The position numbers were made by a program, and so were the translations under genes. Positions 1,026 through 51,290 of a DNA stretch of 64,000 nucleotides are shown piece by piece; position 1 is the stretch's first letter; every line of letters starts with the position of its first letter. This DNA is from Octopus vulgaris (lineage: Eukaryota). The DNA is taken from assembly GCA_951406725.2 (NCBI GenBank), contig OX597839.1:7440001-7504000 (forward strand), written 5' to 3'. Below the pieces are notes generated by a model, which saw only the letters and a program-made list of their open reading frames with translations, searched no databases and was not told the DNA's origin.

Positions 1026-1031
<6 letters not shown>

Positions 1032-2273
1032 TAGACAGGAAAACAAGAAAAATACTGACAGGATCTAGGATGCATCACCCAAAATCTGACATAGAAAGAC
1101 TATATATACAACGTATAGAAGGTGGTAGAGGCCTTATACAGCTGGAAAACTACTATAAAATAACCACCATAGGACTGCAAAAATATCTACTTCAGAAGGA
1201 AGGAAAACTGATCCAGATAGCGGCAAAACACGAGCAAAACAAAAAACTGTTCTCAGTATTTAAGGAAGCTGACAAATACAAACAAGAAATCATACCACCT
1301 AATAAACATGAAGAAGAAGAAGAAGAAGATGAAGAAACAACAAAAGCTATAAAAAAAATGAAATCCAAACTAAAAATAGAACAGCAACGAACCATGATAA
1401 AACGATGGCAAGAAAAGCCCCTTCATGGTAAATACTGCACTAAACTAAACGCAAAAGAAATAGACAAAGAAAAATCCCAGCAATGGTTGAGAAGCTCAGG
1501 ACTCAAAGCAGAAACAGAGGGATTTTTAATTGCAGCACAAGACCAAAGCCTCCCCACCAGAAATTACCAAAAACATGTAATGAAAAGAAATATTACAAGT
1601 AACTGCAGAATATGTGGAGATGGACAAGAAACAATAAATCATATTATCTCTAGCTGCCCAGTCCTGGCTAAGAAGGAATATATTCACAGACATGACAGAG
1701 TTGGAACTTACATACATTGGAAGCTATGCCAACATTATGGAATAACAACAGAAAAAAGATGGTATAGGCACACACCAGAAAAGGTCACAGAAAACGAGAA
1801 AGCAACCATACTCTGGGATATGCCGATACACACAGATAGAGAAATTAAGGCCAACAGACCAGATATAGTTGTCAGAGACCATGAAGAAAAAAAATGCTTT
1901 CTAATTGATGTATCAGTACCGGCAGATGACAACGTGTCTCTAAAAGAAATGGAGAAACTCTCAAAATACAAAGACCTGGAAATAGAGGTAACTAGAATGT
2001 GGAATCTGAAAACAGAAACAATTCCTATCATAGTAGGTGCATTAGGCATGATAAAAAAATATTCAGACAAATACATAACAAAAACACCAGGACTTACAAA
2101 CACATATAACATACAGAAAATTGCACTACTAGGCACTGCACACATCCTACGCAGAACACTTTCCATACAATAACCATCAGAGCATCACAACAAATCACAG
2201 CACATACCCAAGGCACACAGAGCTGCGCTCGGTAGTGAAGTGAAAGCACGCTATAAAAATAAAAATAAAACTA

Positions 2274-10262: not shown

Positions 10263-10319
<57 letters not shown>

Positions 10320-10372
10320 TTATTGTGTGAAATTTGATTTAGTTCTTCTGGATTTTATTCTCAAAGATATTA

Positions 10373-10404
<32 letters not shown>

Positions 10405-10490
10405 TTCGAGACAAAACCACTATTTTGCAAATCAAACAAGGAAAGACTTAATCAATACATAAAAAATTTTAATATAAAGTAAATAAATCG

Positions 10491-10534
10491 CCACTACAAT
10501 TGTTTCATGTCTTCAAATGACATTCGTCAGGTGG
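10491..10534 (-). ncRNA. Type I hammerhead ribozyme motif (inverted-arm copy)
   Basis: Exact reverse complement of 10602-10645. Confidence 0.85.
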
Positions 10535-10601
10535 ATTTCCGATTTCTATTCAGTTTTAATTTATGACTTCATAAATTAAAACTGAATAGAAGATCGGAAA
10601 T

Positions 10602-10645
10602 CCACCTGACGAATGTCATTTGAAGACATGAAACAATTGTAGTGG
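10602..10645 (+). ncRNA. Type I hammerhead ribozyme motif, intact
   Basis: CCAC-CTGACGA-ATGTC ATTTGAA GACAT-GAA-ACAATTGT-A-GTGG: stem I CCAC/GTGG, 5-bp stem II, palindromic stem III, GUA cleavage triplet. Confidence 0.88.
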
Positions 10646-10822
10646 CGATTTATTTACTTTATATTAAAATTTTTTATGTATGGATTAAGTCTTTCCTTGT
10701 TTGATTTGCAAAATAGTGGTTTTGTCTCGAATTAATATTATATAATATTTTACTATAAAATTGGATTTAATCCTAAATCTGATTTTTTCCCTGTAATTTT
10801 GGATTTATTCCCTAATATTTAT

Positions 10823-10868
<46 letters not shown>

Positions 10869-14500: not shown

Positions 14501-15035
14501 CATGGTGTCCCCAAAAAATGTATACACACCTTAAATAATTGTAAATTTGGGGTTTATTATAATCGAATAATTTTCAACATGTAAAAGAATTTACAAATAT
14601 CATTCTATTGTCTTGTTATCGCATGTTCTCAAACTGATGTCCGTTCTGCTCCAGACACTGCTGACAACGCGAAGCGATGGAATGGCACACATCATGGAAC
14701 AATTCCCTTGGGACATTCGTACATTCATGTTCAATGGTTGCCCTCAATTGAACAACTGTTGCAGGTTTCTGTGCGTAGACTTTGTCCTTTAGGTATCCCC
14801 ATAAAAAGAAGTCTAGTGGTGTGAGGTCTGGTGAACGTGGAGGGTATTCGACAAAACCTCTCCGTCCAATCCACCTGTTTGGCAAGATCCCATCAAGAAA
14901 GGATCTAACATCGCGATGGTAGTGTGGAGGTGCCCCATCTTGCTGGAAATAAAACTCTTCCTGTTCAAAGTCCTCTCTAATGCTTGGCATGACAGACTGT
15001 TGCAGCAAGTGTATACACTTTTTTGAGACACCCTG
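14501..15035 (-). mobile_element. Internally deleted Tc1/mariner-superfamily transposon retaining the transposase C-terminus
   Basis: TA-flanked TIRs CATGGTGTCCCCAAAAAATGTATACAC / GTGTATACACTTTTTGAGACACCCTG. ORF 14616-15008 has FQQDGAPPHY, RWIGR and YPPRSPDLTPLDFFLWGYLK. Confidence 0.88.
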
Positions 15036-15054
15036 TATATATATATACAGTGAT

Positions 15055-15220
15055 ACTCTCTTTTACTCATTACTCTTTTACTTGTTTCAGTCATAGGACT
15101 ACGGCCATGCTGGAGCACCGCCTTTAGTCGAGCAAATCGACTCCAGGACTTATTCTTTGGAAGCCTAGTACTTATTCTAGCGGTCTCTTTAGCCGATGTT
15201 AGGGGCGCAAAGACACACAA

Positions 15221-34394: not shown

Positions 34395-34414
34395 TAGATA
34401 TAGATATATATATA

Positions 34415-34751
34415 CTTTATTTTAAGCAACAGAAAATTCAACAAAATCTGTTACTCTGAGTTTCTCGTTGCCGTTCATCAGACAATTTTTGCTAGAATGG
34501 AACTTATATATTAATTCAATCTATACTCTTACAAACGCTACACCTTTAAGATTGAATTAATATATAAGAGTATAGATTGAATTAATATATAAGTTCCATT
34601 CTAGCAAAAACTGTCTGATGAACGGCAACGAGAAACTCAGAGTAACAGATTTTGTTGAATTTTCTGCTGCTTAAAATAAAGCATATTACTCTACCACTGG
34701 TATTTGAGTACTCTTTTTTCCACCGTGTTTCACATTTATGTGTTTACTCCG

Positions 34752-34754
<3 letters not shown>
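34415..34754 (+). mobile_element. Asymmetric fold-back element in (TA)n carrying hammerhead motifs
   Basis: Inverted arms 34415-34531 / 34565-34681. The spacer holds a short duplication, and ~70 bp of unpaired extension follows. (TA)n on both sides. Confidence 0.8.
34611..34648 (+). ncRNA. Type I minimal hammerhead ribozyme motif
   Basis: CTGT-CTGATGA-A CG GCAA CG A-GAA-ACTCAGAGT-A-ACAG: stem I CTGT/ACAG, short GNRA-capped stem II, stem III ACTC/GAGT. Inverted copy at 34448-34485. Confidence 0.75.
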
Positions 34755-34810
<56 letters not shown>

Positions 34811-36988: not shown

Positions 36989-37934
36989 TGCATGTATGTA
37001 TGTAATGTATGTACTTGGGTATATATTATGTATGTATGTATGTATGTATGTATGTATGTGTTCATGTATTGCTGTATGCTGAAGTAGAATGGCAGAAATA
37101 TGATGGGGATCAAGAGAGAGAAGAGTGACGGAGGAATGGGAAGGAGAACAAAAGAGAAACGCAAAGACATTAGCGGAATTTCATGCTCAAATCTCATGAA
37201 AGAACTTTTCGTGTTTACGTTGCTGGTTTTGTGGTTGTTGCTGTTGTTGTTTTTTGAAACGATTCTTGACATCCAATAGAAACGAAGCGAGTGAAATGGA
37301 GGGTATCATTAAGGAAGCGTTGAGAGAGAGAAAGAGGGAGAGAGAGAGAGAGAAAGGGGGAGGCGTGGGGGAGAGATCATAAACTACATAAGAAGAGAGA
37401 AAAGGTAAGTAGTATAATGGCAGATAAATCGCTGGTGGGGGTAAAAAAAAAAAACGGGTGGGTTTGGTTTCCGAAGAGGAAAAGAGGGTGTGTTGTTTTG
37501 GGCTGTTTTCCAGTTTAGTTTCATCTCACGCTCACACACACACACGCACACACACACAAACAAACAAACGCATACGCATACATATAGACGCAAAACTGGA
37601 TAAGTACACCCTACAGGCTTACACTTACACCCTTAGAGAAACACACACAATCATAACCGGCTTTTTTTCAGCGCCATCAGGTTCACAAGGCGCCAATAAC
37701 TGAGGCACCAGTACTACTATCATCCCCAACTGTGCCATCCTCCCAAACCTTCCCCGCCCCCGCCAGCTTTTCTCTTTATGCCCTCATGCTAAATTTGATT
37801 CCCATCAACAGCATCAGCGTCGCCGATGATGTTAGTGCTTTGTATTGCCAATATTTCAACAAATCCTTCCCTCACTTCTAACCCTCCAAGAAGTGTAGAA
37901 TCCAATGTGTAGAATCATCATTGGCCCGTGGTTT

Positions 37935-39020
37935 CTGCTCACCAGCGTCATCACGATCTTCCGCTGGCCAGAATCAGGATTTTTCGCTGACCAGCATCAC
38001 ACCGATTTTCAGCTGGCCAGCTTCATCGCGATTTTCCACTAAGCAGCGTCATCATGATTTTCCGCTGACCAGCGTCATCATGATTTTCCGCTGACCAGCG
38101 TCATCATGATTTTCCGCTGACCAGCGTCATCATGATTTTCCACTGACCAGCGTCGTCATGATTTTCCGCTGACCAGCGTCGTCATGATTTTCCGCTGACC
38201 AGCGTCATCATGATTTTCCGCTGACCAGCGTCATCATGATTTTCCGCTGACCAGCGTCATCATGATTTTCCGCTGACCAGCGTCATCATGATTTTCCGCT
38301 GACCAGCGTCATCATGATTTTCCGCTGACCAGCGTCATCATGATTTTCCACTGACCAGCGTCGTCATGATTTTCCGCTGACCAGCGTCATCATGATTTTC
38401 CGCTGACCAGCGTCATCATGATTTTCCGCTGACCAGCGTCATCATGATTTTCCGCTGACCAGCGTCATCATGATTTTCCGCTGACCAGCGTCATCATGAT
38501 TTTCCGCTGACCAGCGTCGTCATGATTTTCCGCTGACCAAAATTGTTTTTGCTTCAGCACACGAGCTCAAATCAGGTCACTTACGATGCAAGCTCATCTC
38601 TGTAATTACAAGATCTTGAGCCAGGCTACCAAAACTCTGAGGAAAGCCGATACTTGTTGCATGAGAAAAATAACAGCTAAGCAACAGTTTCATTTCATTA
38701 GACACTGCATCTCACTGAAGGTTTCTCTCATTTACATGTAGAAAGATCATGATGATGCTGATCTTTCCCTTTCATGATTTTCTGCTGGCCAGCGTCATCA
38801 CGATTTTCCACTAAGCAGTGTCATCATGATTTTCTGCTGACCATCATCATCATGATCTTTCACTGAATAACATTATAATTATTTTTCGCTGCCCAGCATT
38901 ATCCTGATTTTCCGCATTCCAGTCTCACTCCGATTTTCTGTTAACCAGCATTATCACAATTTTCCTCTGTCCAGTCTCCCCGCGATTTTTGGATCACCAG
39001 CGTCATCACGATTTTTCGAT
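37935..39020. repeat. 26-bp minisatellite CCGCTGACCAGCGTCATCATGATTTT
   Basis: About 19 near-identical units at 38044-38539, with degenerate units on both sides. Interrupted by an insertion at ~38541-38745. Confidence 0.95.
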
Positions 39021-40108
39021 CACCTGTCGCTTTTCTGATAAACAACATCACTTATGTTGCTAGTGTAACCATTTAATTTGTTATTACCTGTGGCACGAAT
39101 CTTACTAAGATGCTTACATGCATCTCAACATGTATGTATGGATTCCTACATGTAAATGAGAGAAACAACCTTCAGTGAGATGTGTGAGGGCGCGTGGCTT
39201 AGTGGTTAGGGCATTCGGCTCATGATCGTAAGGTTGTGAGTTCGATTCCCGGCGACGCGTTGTGTCCTTGAGCAAGACACTTTATTTCACGTTGCTCCAG
39301 TCCACTCAGCTGGAAAAAATGAGTTGTACTTGCATTTCAAAGGGTCAGCCTTGTCACTCTCTGTGTCACGCTGATTATCCCCGAGAACTACGTTAAGGGT
39401 ACACGTATCTGTGGAATGCTCAGCCATTTGCACGTTAATTTCACGAGCAAGCTGTTCCGTTGATCGTATCAGCTGGGACCCTCGTCGTCGTAACCGGCGG
39501 AGTCTTTTTTTTTTTTCAGTGAGATGCAGTGTCTAATGAAATGAAACTGTTGCTTAGCTGTTATTTTTCTCATGCAACAAGTATCGGCTTTCCTCAGAGT
39601 TTTGATAGCCTGGCTCAAGCTTTCGTAATTACGGAGATGTGCTTGCATAGCAAGTGACCTGATCTGAGATCGTGTGCTGAAGCAAAAACAATTTAAAGAC
39701 ACACAAAAGTCGTTAAATCTAATTTGTCATATGTACGTATGTGTAGATGTATGTGTATGTCGGCGTGCGTTTGTATGTGCGTGTATGTATTGTGTGAGTA
39801 TACGTGTGTATGAGTGTGCATGCATGCACGTATGAGTACGTGTGTAGATATATGTATATATTATATATATGTATGTATGCACATAGATATGTATATGTAT
39901 AATATATTTTTTTTATTTTGAATTTTTCAGTGAACAGGTCGCAGTCTGAAAGCGACAATATTTTGACAAAGCAAGTTTAAATGTTGAAGTGAATCTAACG
40001 GTTTTTGTGCTTTCAAATGGCTTCTAAACACATTCCACGCTGCAATTGTTTTTGTTTCAGCACACGATCTCAGATCAGGTCACTTGCTATGCAAGTACAT
40101 CTCCGTAA
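38541..40108. mobile_element. Three pieces of one interspersed repeat in +/-/+ orientation (38541-38741, ~39146-39729, 39927-40108)
   Basis: AATTGTTTTTGYTTCAGCACACGA..ATCAGGTCACTT is present in all three. The middle copy is split by a SINE. Confidence 0.75.
39183..39514 (+). mobile_element. SINE family C2 with target-site duplication
   Basis: A box TGGCTTAGTGG, B box GAGTTCGATTCC, T-rich end; TSD TTCAGTGAGATG at 39171-39182 and 39515-39526. Confidence 0.9.
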
Positions 40109-50194: not shown

Positions 50195-50779
50195 GTATGT
50201 ATATACATATATATATACACGTAGAAAAAATATATACAGCAAGATTATGTACACAAGTAAGTGTGTGTTCGTTTGTATATGTGTGTGTATGTGTGTGTTG
50301 TTTGTGTTTGTGTGCATACAGTTATACCCACTCAGTACTCACGCATTCATTATTTATATAGATAACCGTAGTTAATGTAGTATTATTAGTTAACGTCTGT
50401 TTCGGACATCGGTGGTAATACTAACAACCAGATTAACACTAAAATCACATAATTTCATTTCAGAAAAAATCGAGGCAATTTCTTTGAGATGATTCAATTT
50501 TCTTCAATTAGCATCTAATTATTGCTCAAATTGCACCATATCCTCTTTTGAGCCAATGAGAAAGGTTCCACGTGTTTGCACGAGGTGATAGTTACGATAC
50601 CAACTTCTTCGGATCATACCTTACCGTTTTATTAGCGACCAATAGAAACACCAGATGATTCTCAACTTGATAACTGATACAAATACAGATCAGCTTCCAT
50701 CGCTGGCACTAAAATGTTTTGTTTTGTGCTTTCTTTTTTTTGTTTTTGTTCTTTATGAATTTTCCTACTTTTATAGAAA

Positions 50780-50931
50780 TCTTTATATATAAAGCTGATG
50801 TTGTTTGTGTGTGTGTGGCAGGATTGGTAGCCTTCAACTAACACTATCTCCTCCGAGACCCTGCGGCGCAAGTTGACCAAAATTGAGAGTATGATAGAAG
50901 AAGGCTGGCTCTTAATTCCGCAAAAGAAAGA
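50780..50931 (+). mobile_element. 5' fragment of the non-autonomous Helitron
   Basis: A|TCTTTATATATAAAGCTGA...; reverse complement of ~17620-17769. Confidence 0.75.
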
Positions 50932-51051
50932 ATGGTAGTGTGGAGGTGCCCCATCTTGCTGGAAATAAAACTCTTCCTGTTCAAAGTCCTCTCTAATGCT
51001 TGGCATGACAGACTGTTGCAGCATGTGTATACATTTTTTGGGGACACCCTG
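50932..51051 (-). mobile_element. Partial second copy of the Tc1/mariner deletion derivative
   Basis: Nearly identical to ~14916-15035, including the TIR-to-LLQQSVMP junction. Confidence 0.85.
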
Positions 51052-51290
51052 TATATATATATATATATATACATACGAGCAAATATATATATATATGGCT
51101 TTTTCAGTTTCTATCTCACAAATCGACTTACAATGACCGTGATTATTGTAACAGGCACCTGCTCAAGGTGCCAAGTTCTGGGACTGAACCCAAAACCATA
51201 CGGTTGAAAAGGAAGCTTCTTACTACACAGCTGCGCCTGCGCCTATATGTATAAGTCAATATATACATACTTATACATACATATGCATAG

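What the first reader, a model, noticed from the sequence alone, without database searches (positions are those of the whole stretch)
10392..10826. Intact hammerhead ribozyme pair in a ~350-bp near-perfect palindrome inserted in (TA)n
Seen: ~175-bp inverted arms with a 2-nt spacer. Each arm carries CCAC-CUGACGA-(AUGUC/GACAU stem II)-GAA-ACAAUUGU-A-GUGG, with all core nucleotides present, and one arm extends ~80 bp further. Established: type I hammerheads with a short palindromic stem III occur in the pseudo-LTRs of Penelope-like elements (PLEs) and are thought to cleave as dimers; PLE insertions often carry an inverted partial pLTR. Inference: this is a young non-coding PLE-derived insertion. 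In a read-through transcript the ribozyme would be locked in a long dsRNA hairpin, so cleavage would compete with duplex formation and with A-to-I editing, which is extensive in cephalopods.
Basis: partly seen in the sequence, partly recalled or inferred. Interest (0 to 1): 0.85.

Follow-up and report, generated by a model that had tools for sequence, protein, structure and literature searches.

The report
Spliced twin retrocopies of Penelope-like element
This DNA palindrome is two back-to-back copies of the intron-free front end of a jumping gene's RNA, likely written into both sides of one DNA break, which matters because this class of jumping gene is known for keeping its introns and how its palindromes form is an open question.

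Summary
The palindrome and both hammerheads are real. Inverted hammerhead pairs from Penelope-like elements (PLEs) are already in print. I found the parent, a Hydra-clade PLE 98.7% identical over exon 2 (L203). There, window 10566-10592 is a 27-nt first exon behind an Initiator-like motif, followed by a 1.1-kb GT-AG intron that both arms lack. Genome-wide, 84 of 100 listed junction copies are spliced. All 26 spliced exon-1 copies start within 6 nt of the predicted start site, and all 5 unspliced ones keep the upstream DNA. Of 59 two-arm insertions, 55 pair one long arm (ending 10826) with one short arm (ending 10744); none is long-long or short-short. The arms share source alleles (144 of 150 comparisons, 99 expected). 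Best reading: the PLE enzyme likely primes both strands of a (TA)n break at two internal sites of one capped, spliced sense RNA. This argues against the published antisense self-priming model for this family. Copied templates look uncleaved (0 of 100 start at the cleavage site). Catalysis, transcription and A-to-I editing are untested.

The parts
10373..10391 (.). Left (TA)n target microsatellite
10392..10566 (-). Short arm: spliced copy of the PLE 5' UTR (exon-1 remnant 10544-10566 joined to exon 2), ending at the short predicted RT start site
   Evidence: one search shows 23 nt 100% identical to parent exon 1 and 98% identity to parent exon 2
10491..10534 (-). Type I hammerhead in the short arm
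10565..10568 (.). Head-to-head junction. A GA microhomology fits a cap-derived G plus the +1 A (inferred and ambiguous, because the G is also part of the other arm)
   Evidence: sequence; the same centre recurs in 5 of 26 spliced copies and in a sister subfamily
10566..10592 (+). Exon 1 (27 nt). It starts at the A of an Initiator-like TTC|ACTT and is followed by a GTATGT donor in the parent (L203:5464-5490)
   Evidence: 0 mismatches
10593..10826 (+). Exon 2 part of the long arm. In the parent it follows a TTTTTAG acceptor and continues to the ORF start about 55 nt beyond 10826
   Evidence: 98.7% identity over 236 nt to L203:1053-1288
10591..10651 (+). Type I hammerhead: core 10602-10645, predicted outer helix 10591-10596/10646-10651, self-complementary stem III 10633-10640, predicted cleavage after A10641. 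In other copies, 10648-10651 is a 5'-truncation hot spot
10745..10826 (+). 82-nt 'tail' between the short (10744) and long (10826) fixed 3' ends, i.e. between the two predicted internal RT start sites
10827..10868 (.). Right (TA)n target microsatellite

Best explanation
The palindrome is a pair of spliced, promoterless copies of the 5' untranslated region of a Hydra-clade Penelope-like retrotransposon, likely made by reverse transcription primed on both strands of one (TA)n break from a single sense RNA. Shown: the parent element, the missing GT-AG intron, the shared 5' start, the two fixed 3' ends, the long+short pairing, shared alleles between arms and microhomology joins. Inferred steps: (1) The parent's pLTR promoter fires at the Initiator-like site, and the cap-proximal 1.1-kb intron is spliced. 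(2) The RT/GIY-YIG protein nicks both strands of (TA)n. (3) One 3' end primes at the long site (10826) and the other at the short site (10744); both are AT-rich and lie upstream of the ORF. (4) Each cDNA runs to the RNA 5' end or stops early, often at the foot of the hammerhead's outer helix. (5) The two cDNA ends join by microhomology. The result is a dead by-product. Promoter-bearing copies would come from the downstream pLTR, where the intron was never seen spliced, so 'intron retention' in this family would depend on position.
For: Parent and exon/intron structure. Of 100 listed junction matches (124 in all), 84 are spliced and 16 unspliced. All 26 spliced exon-1 copies have at most 6 nt of native upstream DNA, and all 5 unspliced ones continue upstream (Fisher p=6e-6). 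Sister subfamilies also have spliced copies, including two donors 4 nt apart, which a DNA deletion would not explain. Of 59 two-arm insertions, 55 are long+short and none long-long or short-short. The short arm reaches further 5' in 12 of 59, the long arm in 15, and in 3 the arms do not overlap, as in classic twin priming. Arm alleles agree in 144 of 150 comparisons against 98.7 expected. In vitro, a PLE protein cuts and extends both strands and starts at two internal sites that bound the tail (PMC11167929).
Against: No RNA evidence for the start site, cap or splice was obtained; only contigs were available. The cap-G sign is weak: 9 of 26 copies have G before +1, 6 of them ambiguous, and 3 of 5 solo copies. 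17 of 30 ORF-start loci have an unspliced 5' pLTR and only 1 a spliced one, so long copies mostly come from unspliced or read-through RNA; the reason is inferred, not tested. One RNA cannot be told from two RNAs of one locus. Allele sharing could also reflect gene conversion between arms. A second PLE family in this genome shows 0 of 52 spliced copies at its putative donor, so the pattern is not general. The anole study saw no strand difference in start sites.
Confidence: 0.65

Rival explanations
1. Same two-ended priming, but on two RNA molecules from one source locus held together by the hammerhead's self-complementary stem III, each serving one subunit of the enzyme.
For: The stem III palindrome is conserved with compensatory change. 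The dimer fold is favoured over two monomers. Both arms copy the same RNA stretch, which is easier with two templates. One of 17 insertions differs between arms at the three-allele site 10586.
Against: The strict long+short rule and 3 non-overlapping pairs follow more simply from one template. A dimer should cleave, yet 0 of 100 listed copies start at the cleavage site.
Confidence: 0.15
2. One cDNA is made and its 3' end folds back to copy itself, or a single insertion is later duplicated in inverted form and trimmed at the centre.
For: The arms share alleles and the junctions show microhomology, as fold-back also predicts.
Against: In 12 of 59 insertions the short arm holds 5' sequence that the long arm lacks, and the long arm always holds the tail that the short arm lacks. 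In 3 the arms do not overlap. Many truncated pairs keep one arm intact to the exact start site, which random centre deletion would not.
Confidence: 0.1
3. The 261-nt unit is an independent non-autonomous element (SINE-like or retrozyme-like) amplifying from one spliced master copy.
For: Fixed 5' end, many young copies, and a hammerhead as in non-LTR retrozymes.
Against: All three exon-1 alleles occur in both intron-bearing parents and spliced copies. Spliced forms arose separately in several subfamilies. No unit is delimited by the cleavage site. The spliced copies lack the upstream promoter region.
Confidence: 0.06
4. The head-to-head palindrome arises by self-priming on an antisense RNA, the model proposed for PLEs to explain both palindromes and intron retention (PMC3846280).
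For: It is published as the best interpretation of head-to-head junctions. Most ORF-bearing copies here do keep the intron end.
Against: Both arms lack a sense-strand GT-AG intron and begin at the sense start site. An antisense template would not be spliced.
Confidence: 0.02
5. The palindrome is an assembly artefact (fold-back read).
For: No contig of the four public runs laid spans the whole stretch.
Against: The arms differ at 2 places and are asymmetric. 59 two-arm loci have varied junctions. Independent runs hold the spliced 5' end and head-to-head joints.
Confidence: 0.01

Closest known systems
Hydra-clade Penelope-like elements (Craig et al. 2021, PMC8557442), including Hydra-1_Obim
   Same: C-terminal endonuclease, DKT, CxCx5C linker, CxxC..E..N..CxH, (TA)n target, canonical hammerhead with a short palindromic stem III, inverted 5'-truncated copy, tail at one end.
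   Different: The hammerhead sequence differs from Hydra-1_Obim in their supplement. The elements are longer (about 5.5 kb between pLTRs), the tail is 82 nt not 30-40, and KWK replaces RWK. The passages I read report no intron-less copies and no long+short rule.
Dual minimal hammerheads on opposite strands in truncated PLEs (Cervera and de la Pena 2014, PMC4209133)
   Same: Two hammerheads 100-700 bp apart on opposite strands, dimer-type stem III, weakly paired first position of stem II.
   Different: Noted there only as probable truncated PLEs; no splicing, start site or pairing analysis in the parts I read.
PAc/Poseidon internal initiation in vitro (Frangieh et al. 2024, PMC11167929)
   Same: Two internal RT start sites bounding the tail, both strands cut and extended, uncleaved RNA as main template.
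   Different: Their sites are AC-rich, inside the ORF and not homologous to the target. Here they are AT-rich, upstream of the ORF and resemble (TA)n. They saw no strand difference in start site, while the insertions here pair one of each.
LINE-1 twin priming and processed pseudogenes (recalled; search listing only)
   Same: Two primers on one RNA, an inverted 5' part, a microhomology join, loss of the intron.
   Different: In L1 the two cDNAs cover different parts of the RNA and start from a poly(A) end. Here both starts are fixed internal sites and the cDNAs usually overlap, giving a palindrome.
Non-LTR retrozymes (bioRxiv 10.64898/2026.07.22.740005)
   Same: Short, non-coding, type I hammerhead, derived from PLE pLTRs.
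   Different: Retrozymes are tandem units processed by cleavage. These copies are inverted or solo, bounded by the start site and RT start sites.

Membership tests
Type I hammerhead ribozyme | Core CUGANGA...GAAA...UH with three stems | tested here: met
   the core is invariant in 22 sequences, though the search patterns required it
Type I hammerhead ribozyme | Stem covariation | tested here: inconclusive
   One stem III pair goes A-U 12, G-U 5, G-C 5 of 22. The first stem II pair is unpaired in 14 of 22. The other pairs hardly vary. The overall score is not above shuffles (32 of 500).
Type I hammerhead ribozyme | Match to an Rfam hammerhead model | tested here: not met
Type I hammerhead ribozyme | Self-cleavage | not testable with these tools
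   No assay. Genomic copies give no clear sign of cleaved templates.
Penelope-like element, endonuclease-bearing | Linked ORF with RT and C-terminal GIY-YIG-type endonuclease between pLTRs | tested here: met
   L203 (frameshifted), L207 (820 aa) and L204 (840 aa): YRDD, YIG; relatives carry PF26215. Pfam itself gave no significant hit.
Penelope-like element, endonuclease-bearing | Inverted 5'-truncated copy and tail at one end | tested here: met
Penelope-like element, endonuclease-bearing | Intron retained in genomic copies | tested here: not met
   Not met for the short copies (84 of 100 spliced). Met for most ORF-bearing copies (17 of 30 unspliced, 1 spliced).
Hydra clade | DKT instead of DKG; CxCx5C linker; CxxC and CxH around E and N | tested here: met
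   motifs taken
Hydra clade | N-terminal RWK motif | tested here: inconclusive
   KWK at that place; RWK in 13 of 23 near-full-length relatives
Hydra clade | (TA)n target and canonical hammerhead | tested here: met
Hydra clade | RT tree placement with reference Hydra proteins | not tested
Non-LTR retrozyme | Tandem units bounded by hammerhead cleavage | tested here: not met
   a few direct pairs occur in a sister subfamily

The most novel reading that the evidence does not exclude
These palindromes are a genomic record of the PLE replication cycle. One enzyme dimer twin-primes a capped, spliced sense mRNA at two fixed internal sites, one per DNA strand. PLE intron retention is only positional: the intron is spliced next to the cap but not in the downstream pLTR that founds promoter-bearing copies. 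The hammerhead acts in the particle as an uncleaved template boundary at which the telomerase-related RT stalls and stutters.
Probability: 0.5. Interest if true: 0.78.

Novelty: new variant of a known kind. Interest (0 to 1): 0.62.

Why it matters
Intron retention and head-to-head inverted ends are the two unexplained hallmarks of Penelope-like elements. The 2021 review calls the significance of intron retention unknown, and the 2013 paper leaves sense against antisense template open. Here, dozens of young copies decide the template question for one family (sense, spliced) and give sharp predictions for the existing in vitro system: one start site per strand, same template, stall at the ribozyme. 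Intact ORFs of about 820-850 aa exist in the genome, so the test can be done. The hammerhead pair by itself is ordinary.

Tried and rejected
Rfam: no hammerhead, only generic miRNA-hairpin matches below their cut-offs. GIY-YIG Pfam search: it retrieved other PLE families whose pLTRs do not match this element, so they were rejected as parent. A TATA-plus-start pattern gave 1 match, not a parent. A tail-continuation pattern gave 4 matches, none a parent. Monomer fold: no more stable than shuffles, z=0.27. Cleavage-defined 5' ends: 0 of 100 listed copies; one contig joint in run X2 and locus L130 do start there. RNA evidence: no RNA holder listed, and the runs were contigs only, so expression, start site and editing are open; the letter differences seen fit subfamily variants. 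A second read-laying on the parent's intron gave no result, so spliced and unspliced depth in other samples is unmeasured. Splicing in a second PLE family: 0 of 52 (that donor is only putative). Earlier scan findings: none. Literature searches for spliced or intron-less PLE copies and for octopus or cephalopod hammerheads listed no such report.

Full report
Observation. The window holds an inverted repeat with arms 10392-10566 and 10569-10744 and a CT spacer. The arms differ by one mismatch and one 1-nt indel, and the right arm continues 82 nt to 10826, between (TA)n runs. Each arm has a complete type I hammerhead core, on + at 10602-10645 and on - at 10491-10534. Rfam does not detect it. The core pattern has 4,166 matches in the 2.8-Gb genome against 0 for the reversed control.

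The structure is recurrent. DNA searches returned 1,238-2,341 candidates, of which only the best 40 were scored each time; the leading matches were 95-100% identical. Copies share a 5' end at 10566 and two 3' ends, 10744 and 10826, each running into (TA)n. From 150 loci of five searches I resolved 79 distinct insertions. Of these, 59 have two head-to-head arms: 55 long+short, none long-long, none short-short, and 4 with irregular BLAST ends that still look like one arm of each kind. Twenty were called single-armed, a few wrongly because of thresholds or a later insertion. Two of the five searches required a long arm; in the three 5'-anchored sets, 33 of 36 two-arm insertions are long+short.

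The parent. Widely spaced hammerheads led to an ORF-bearing element (L166), and its protein led to the window's own subfamily. L203 matches 10591-10826 at 98.7% directly upstream of a frameshifted ORF and again, to the short end, 5.5 kb downstream. L207 (820 aa, same subfamily) and L204-L206 (sister subfamily) have long open frames. They carry DKT, YRDD, CxCx5C, YIG and CxxC..E..N..CxH, with KWK for RWK, the motifs given for the Hydra clade (PMC8557442, section 11). Pfam gave no significant hit, but 40 relatives were found, many with PF26215. No tree was built. A Hydra family is already listed for Octopus bimaculoides with a different hammerhead (supplement).

The arms are spliced. In the parent the match stops at a TTTTTAG acceptor. 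The window's first 27 nt occur 1.1 kb upstream with 0 mismatches, after an Initiator-like TTC|ACTT (motif recalled) and before GTATGT. A pattern covering both junction forms has 124 matches; of the 100 listed, 84 are spliced and 16 unspliced. Of 31 exon-1 matches, 26 are spliced and carry at most 6 nt of native upstream DNA, and 5 are unspliced and continue upstream (p=6e-6). Sister subfamilies show the same, with two donors 4 nt apart both captured. L166 is a near-full-length copy whose 5' junction looks spliced (7 nt of exon 1 left) while its 3' pLTR keeps the intron. Against a simple picture: 17 of 30 ORF-start loci have an unspliced 5' pLTR and only 1 a spliced one, and a second PLE family has 0 of 52 spliced copies at its putative donor. 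A G before +1, as expected from copying a cap, is seen in 9 of 26 copies, but 6 are ambiguous; 3 of 5 solo copies have it.

How the palindrome forms. The arms of one insertion share alleles at five polymorphic sites in 144 of 150 comparisons, against 98.7 expected; divergence is 1.5% within and 3.0% between insertions. Either arm can be the more truncated: the short arm reaches further 5' in 12 of 59, the long arm in 15, and in 3 they do not overlap. Junctions show microhomology and short templated inserts. This fits two cDNAs primed on opposite strands at two internal sites of the same RNA, or of two RNAs from one locus, and fits fold-back poorly. It matches the in vitro result for an anole PLE, which cuts and extends both strands and starts at two internal sites that bound the tail (PMC11167929). 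It contradicts, for this family, self-priming on an antisense template (PMC3846280, Discussion).

The ribozyme. Stem III stays self-complementary across subfamilies (A-U 12, G-U 5, G-C 5 of 22). Most other pairs are invariant, partly because the patterns fixed them, and overall covariation does not beat shuffles. The active monomer (-8.5 kcal/mol) is less stable than an alternative fold (-11.2), while a double hammerhead reaches -28.2. The whole palindrome folds into one hairpin at -278. Of 100 listed copies (312 in all) that retain the bases 3' of the cleavage site, none starts there and 98 run through it. One contig joint and L130 are exceptions. Truncations cluster instead at 10648-10651, the foot of the predicted outer helix: 18 of 29 arm starts between 10595 and 10700 in the loci (arms of one insertion are not independent), often with added (ATTT)n. 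Five of 15 listed contig joints in other runs fall there too. An RT stall is the likely cause; trimmed cleavage products or later collapse of the palindrome centre are not excluded.

What is known. Dual hammerheads on opposite strands were noted in 2014 (PMC4209133), and the inverted truncated copy and one-sided tail are standard (PMC8557442). I found no report of spliced PLE copies or of the long+short rule in searches. What I read: PMC8557442 passages, section 11 and part 2 of its supplement; PMC11167929 parts 1-2 of 4 and passages; PMC4209133 part 1 of 4 and passages; PMC3846280 passages and Discussion; PMC2377424 passages; bioRxiv 10.64898/2026.07.22.740005 part 1 of 5 and passages, without supplements; passages of PMC13282606, PMC9977147 and PMC12910113. 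Not seen: the 2003, 2005 and 2006 PLE papers in subscription journals, Repbase entries, and the supplements of the other papers. Any of these may mention intron-less copies, which would lower the novelty.

Verdict. The hammerhead pair is known. The spliced, start-anchored, strictly asymmetric arms are a new variant that makes the PLE template and intron questions testable. Interest 0.62.

Noticed in passing
window 34410-34760: A second head-to-head hammerhead palindrome of an unrelated family in (TA)n, with the same short-arm/long-arm layout (tail about 70 nt). Its hammerhead flanks resemble Hydra-2_aMil in the supplement of PMC8557442. Parent and splicing not checked.
   Followed up: partly
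window 10317-10372: A 56-nt AT-rich piece between two (TA)n runs that resembles, by eye, the tails of related elements seen beside L006 and L028: probably an older truncated insertion.
   Followed up: no
L164 and L165 (G000:C1:8393500-8400500, 8766500-8773500): Palindromes of about 4.7 kb whose arms are intron-retaining 3' UTR plus pLTR of a sister subfamily, with the same long+short ends.
   Followed up: partly
L121-L128: A young Neptune-like PLE family with an upstream 479-aa ORF and a 781-aa RT-endonuclease frame, many apparently intact copies, repeated CCAAT/CRE-like motifs before a TATA box, and a hammerhead-like motif with U/A in place of C3/G8 (motif names recalled).
   Followed up: partly
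L204-L211 ORFs: An asparagine-rich, length-variable insert between RT and endonuclease, like the N-rich inserts described in rotifer Penelope elements.
   Followed up: no
L097, L110, L115, L117 junctions: (ATTT)n added at the junction where cDNAs stop before the hammerhead helix, reminiscent of telomerase repeat addition at a template boundary; repair-polymerase slippage is an equal candidate.
   Followed up: partly
window 1028-2170 (+), 14619-15062 (-), 50665-51162 (-): Open frames that look, by eye, like a LINE C-terminal region and Tc1/mariner transposase fragments; not scanned against families.
   Followed up: no
window 37932-39028: A 26-bp tandem repeat array, 23.5 copies at 91% matches, with degenerate extensions.
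   Followed up: no
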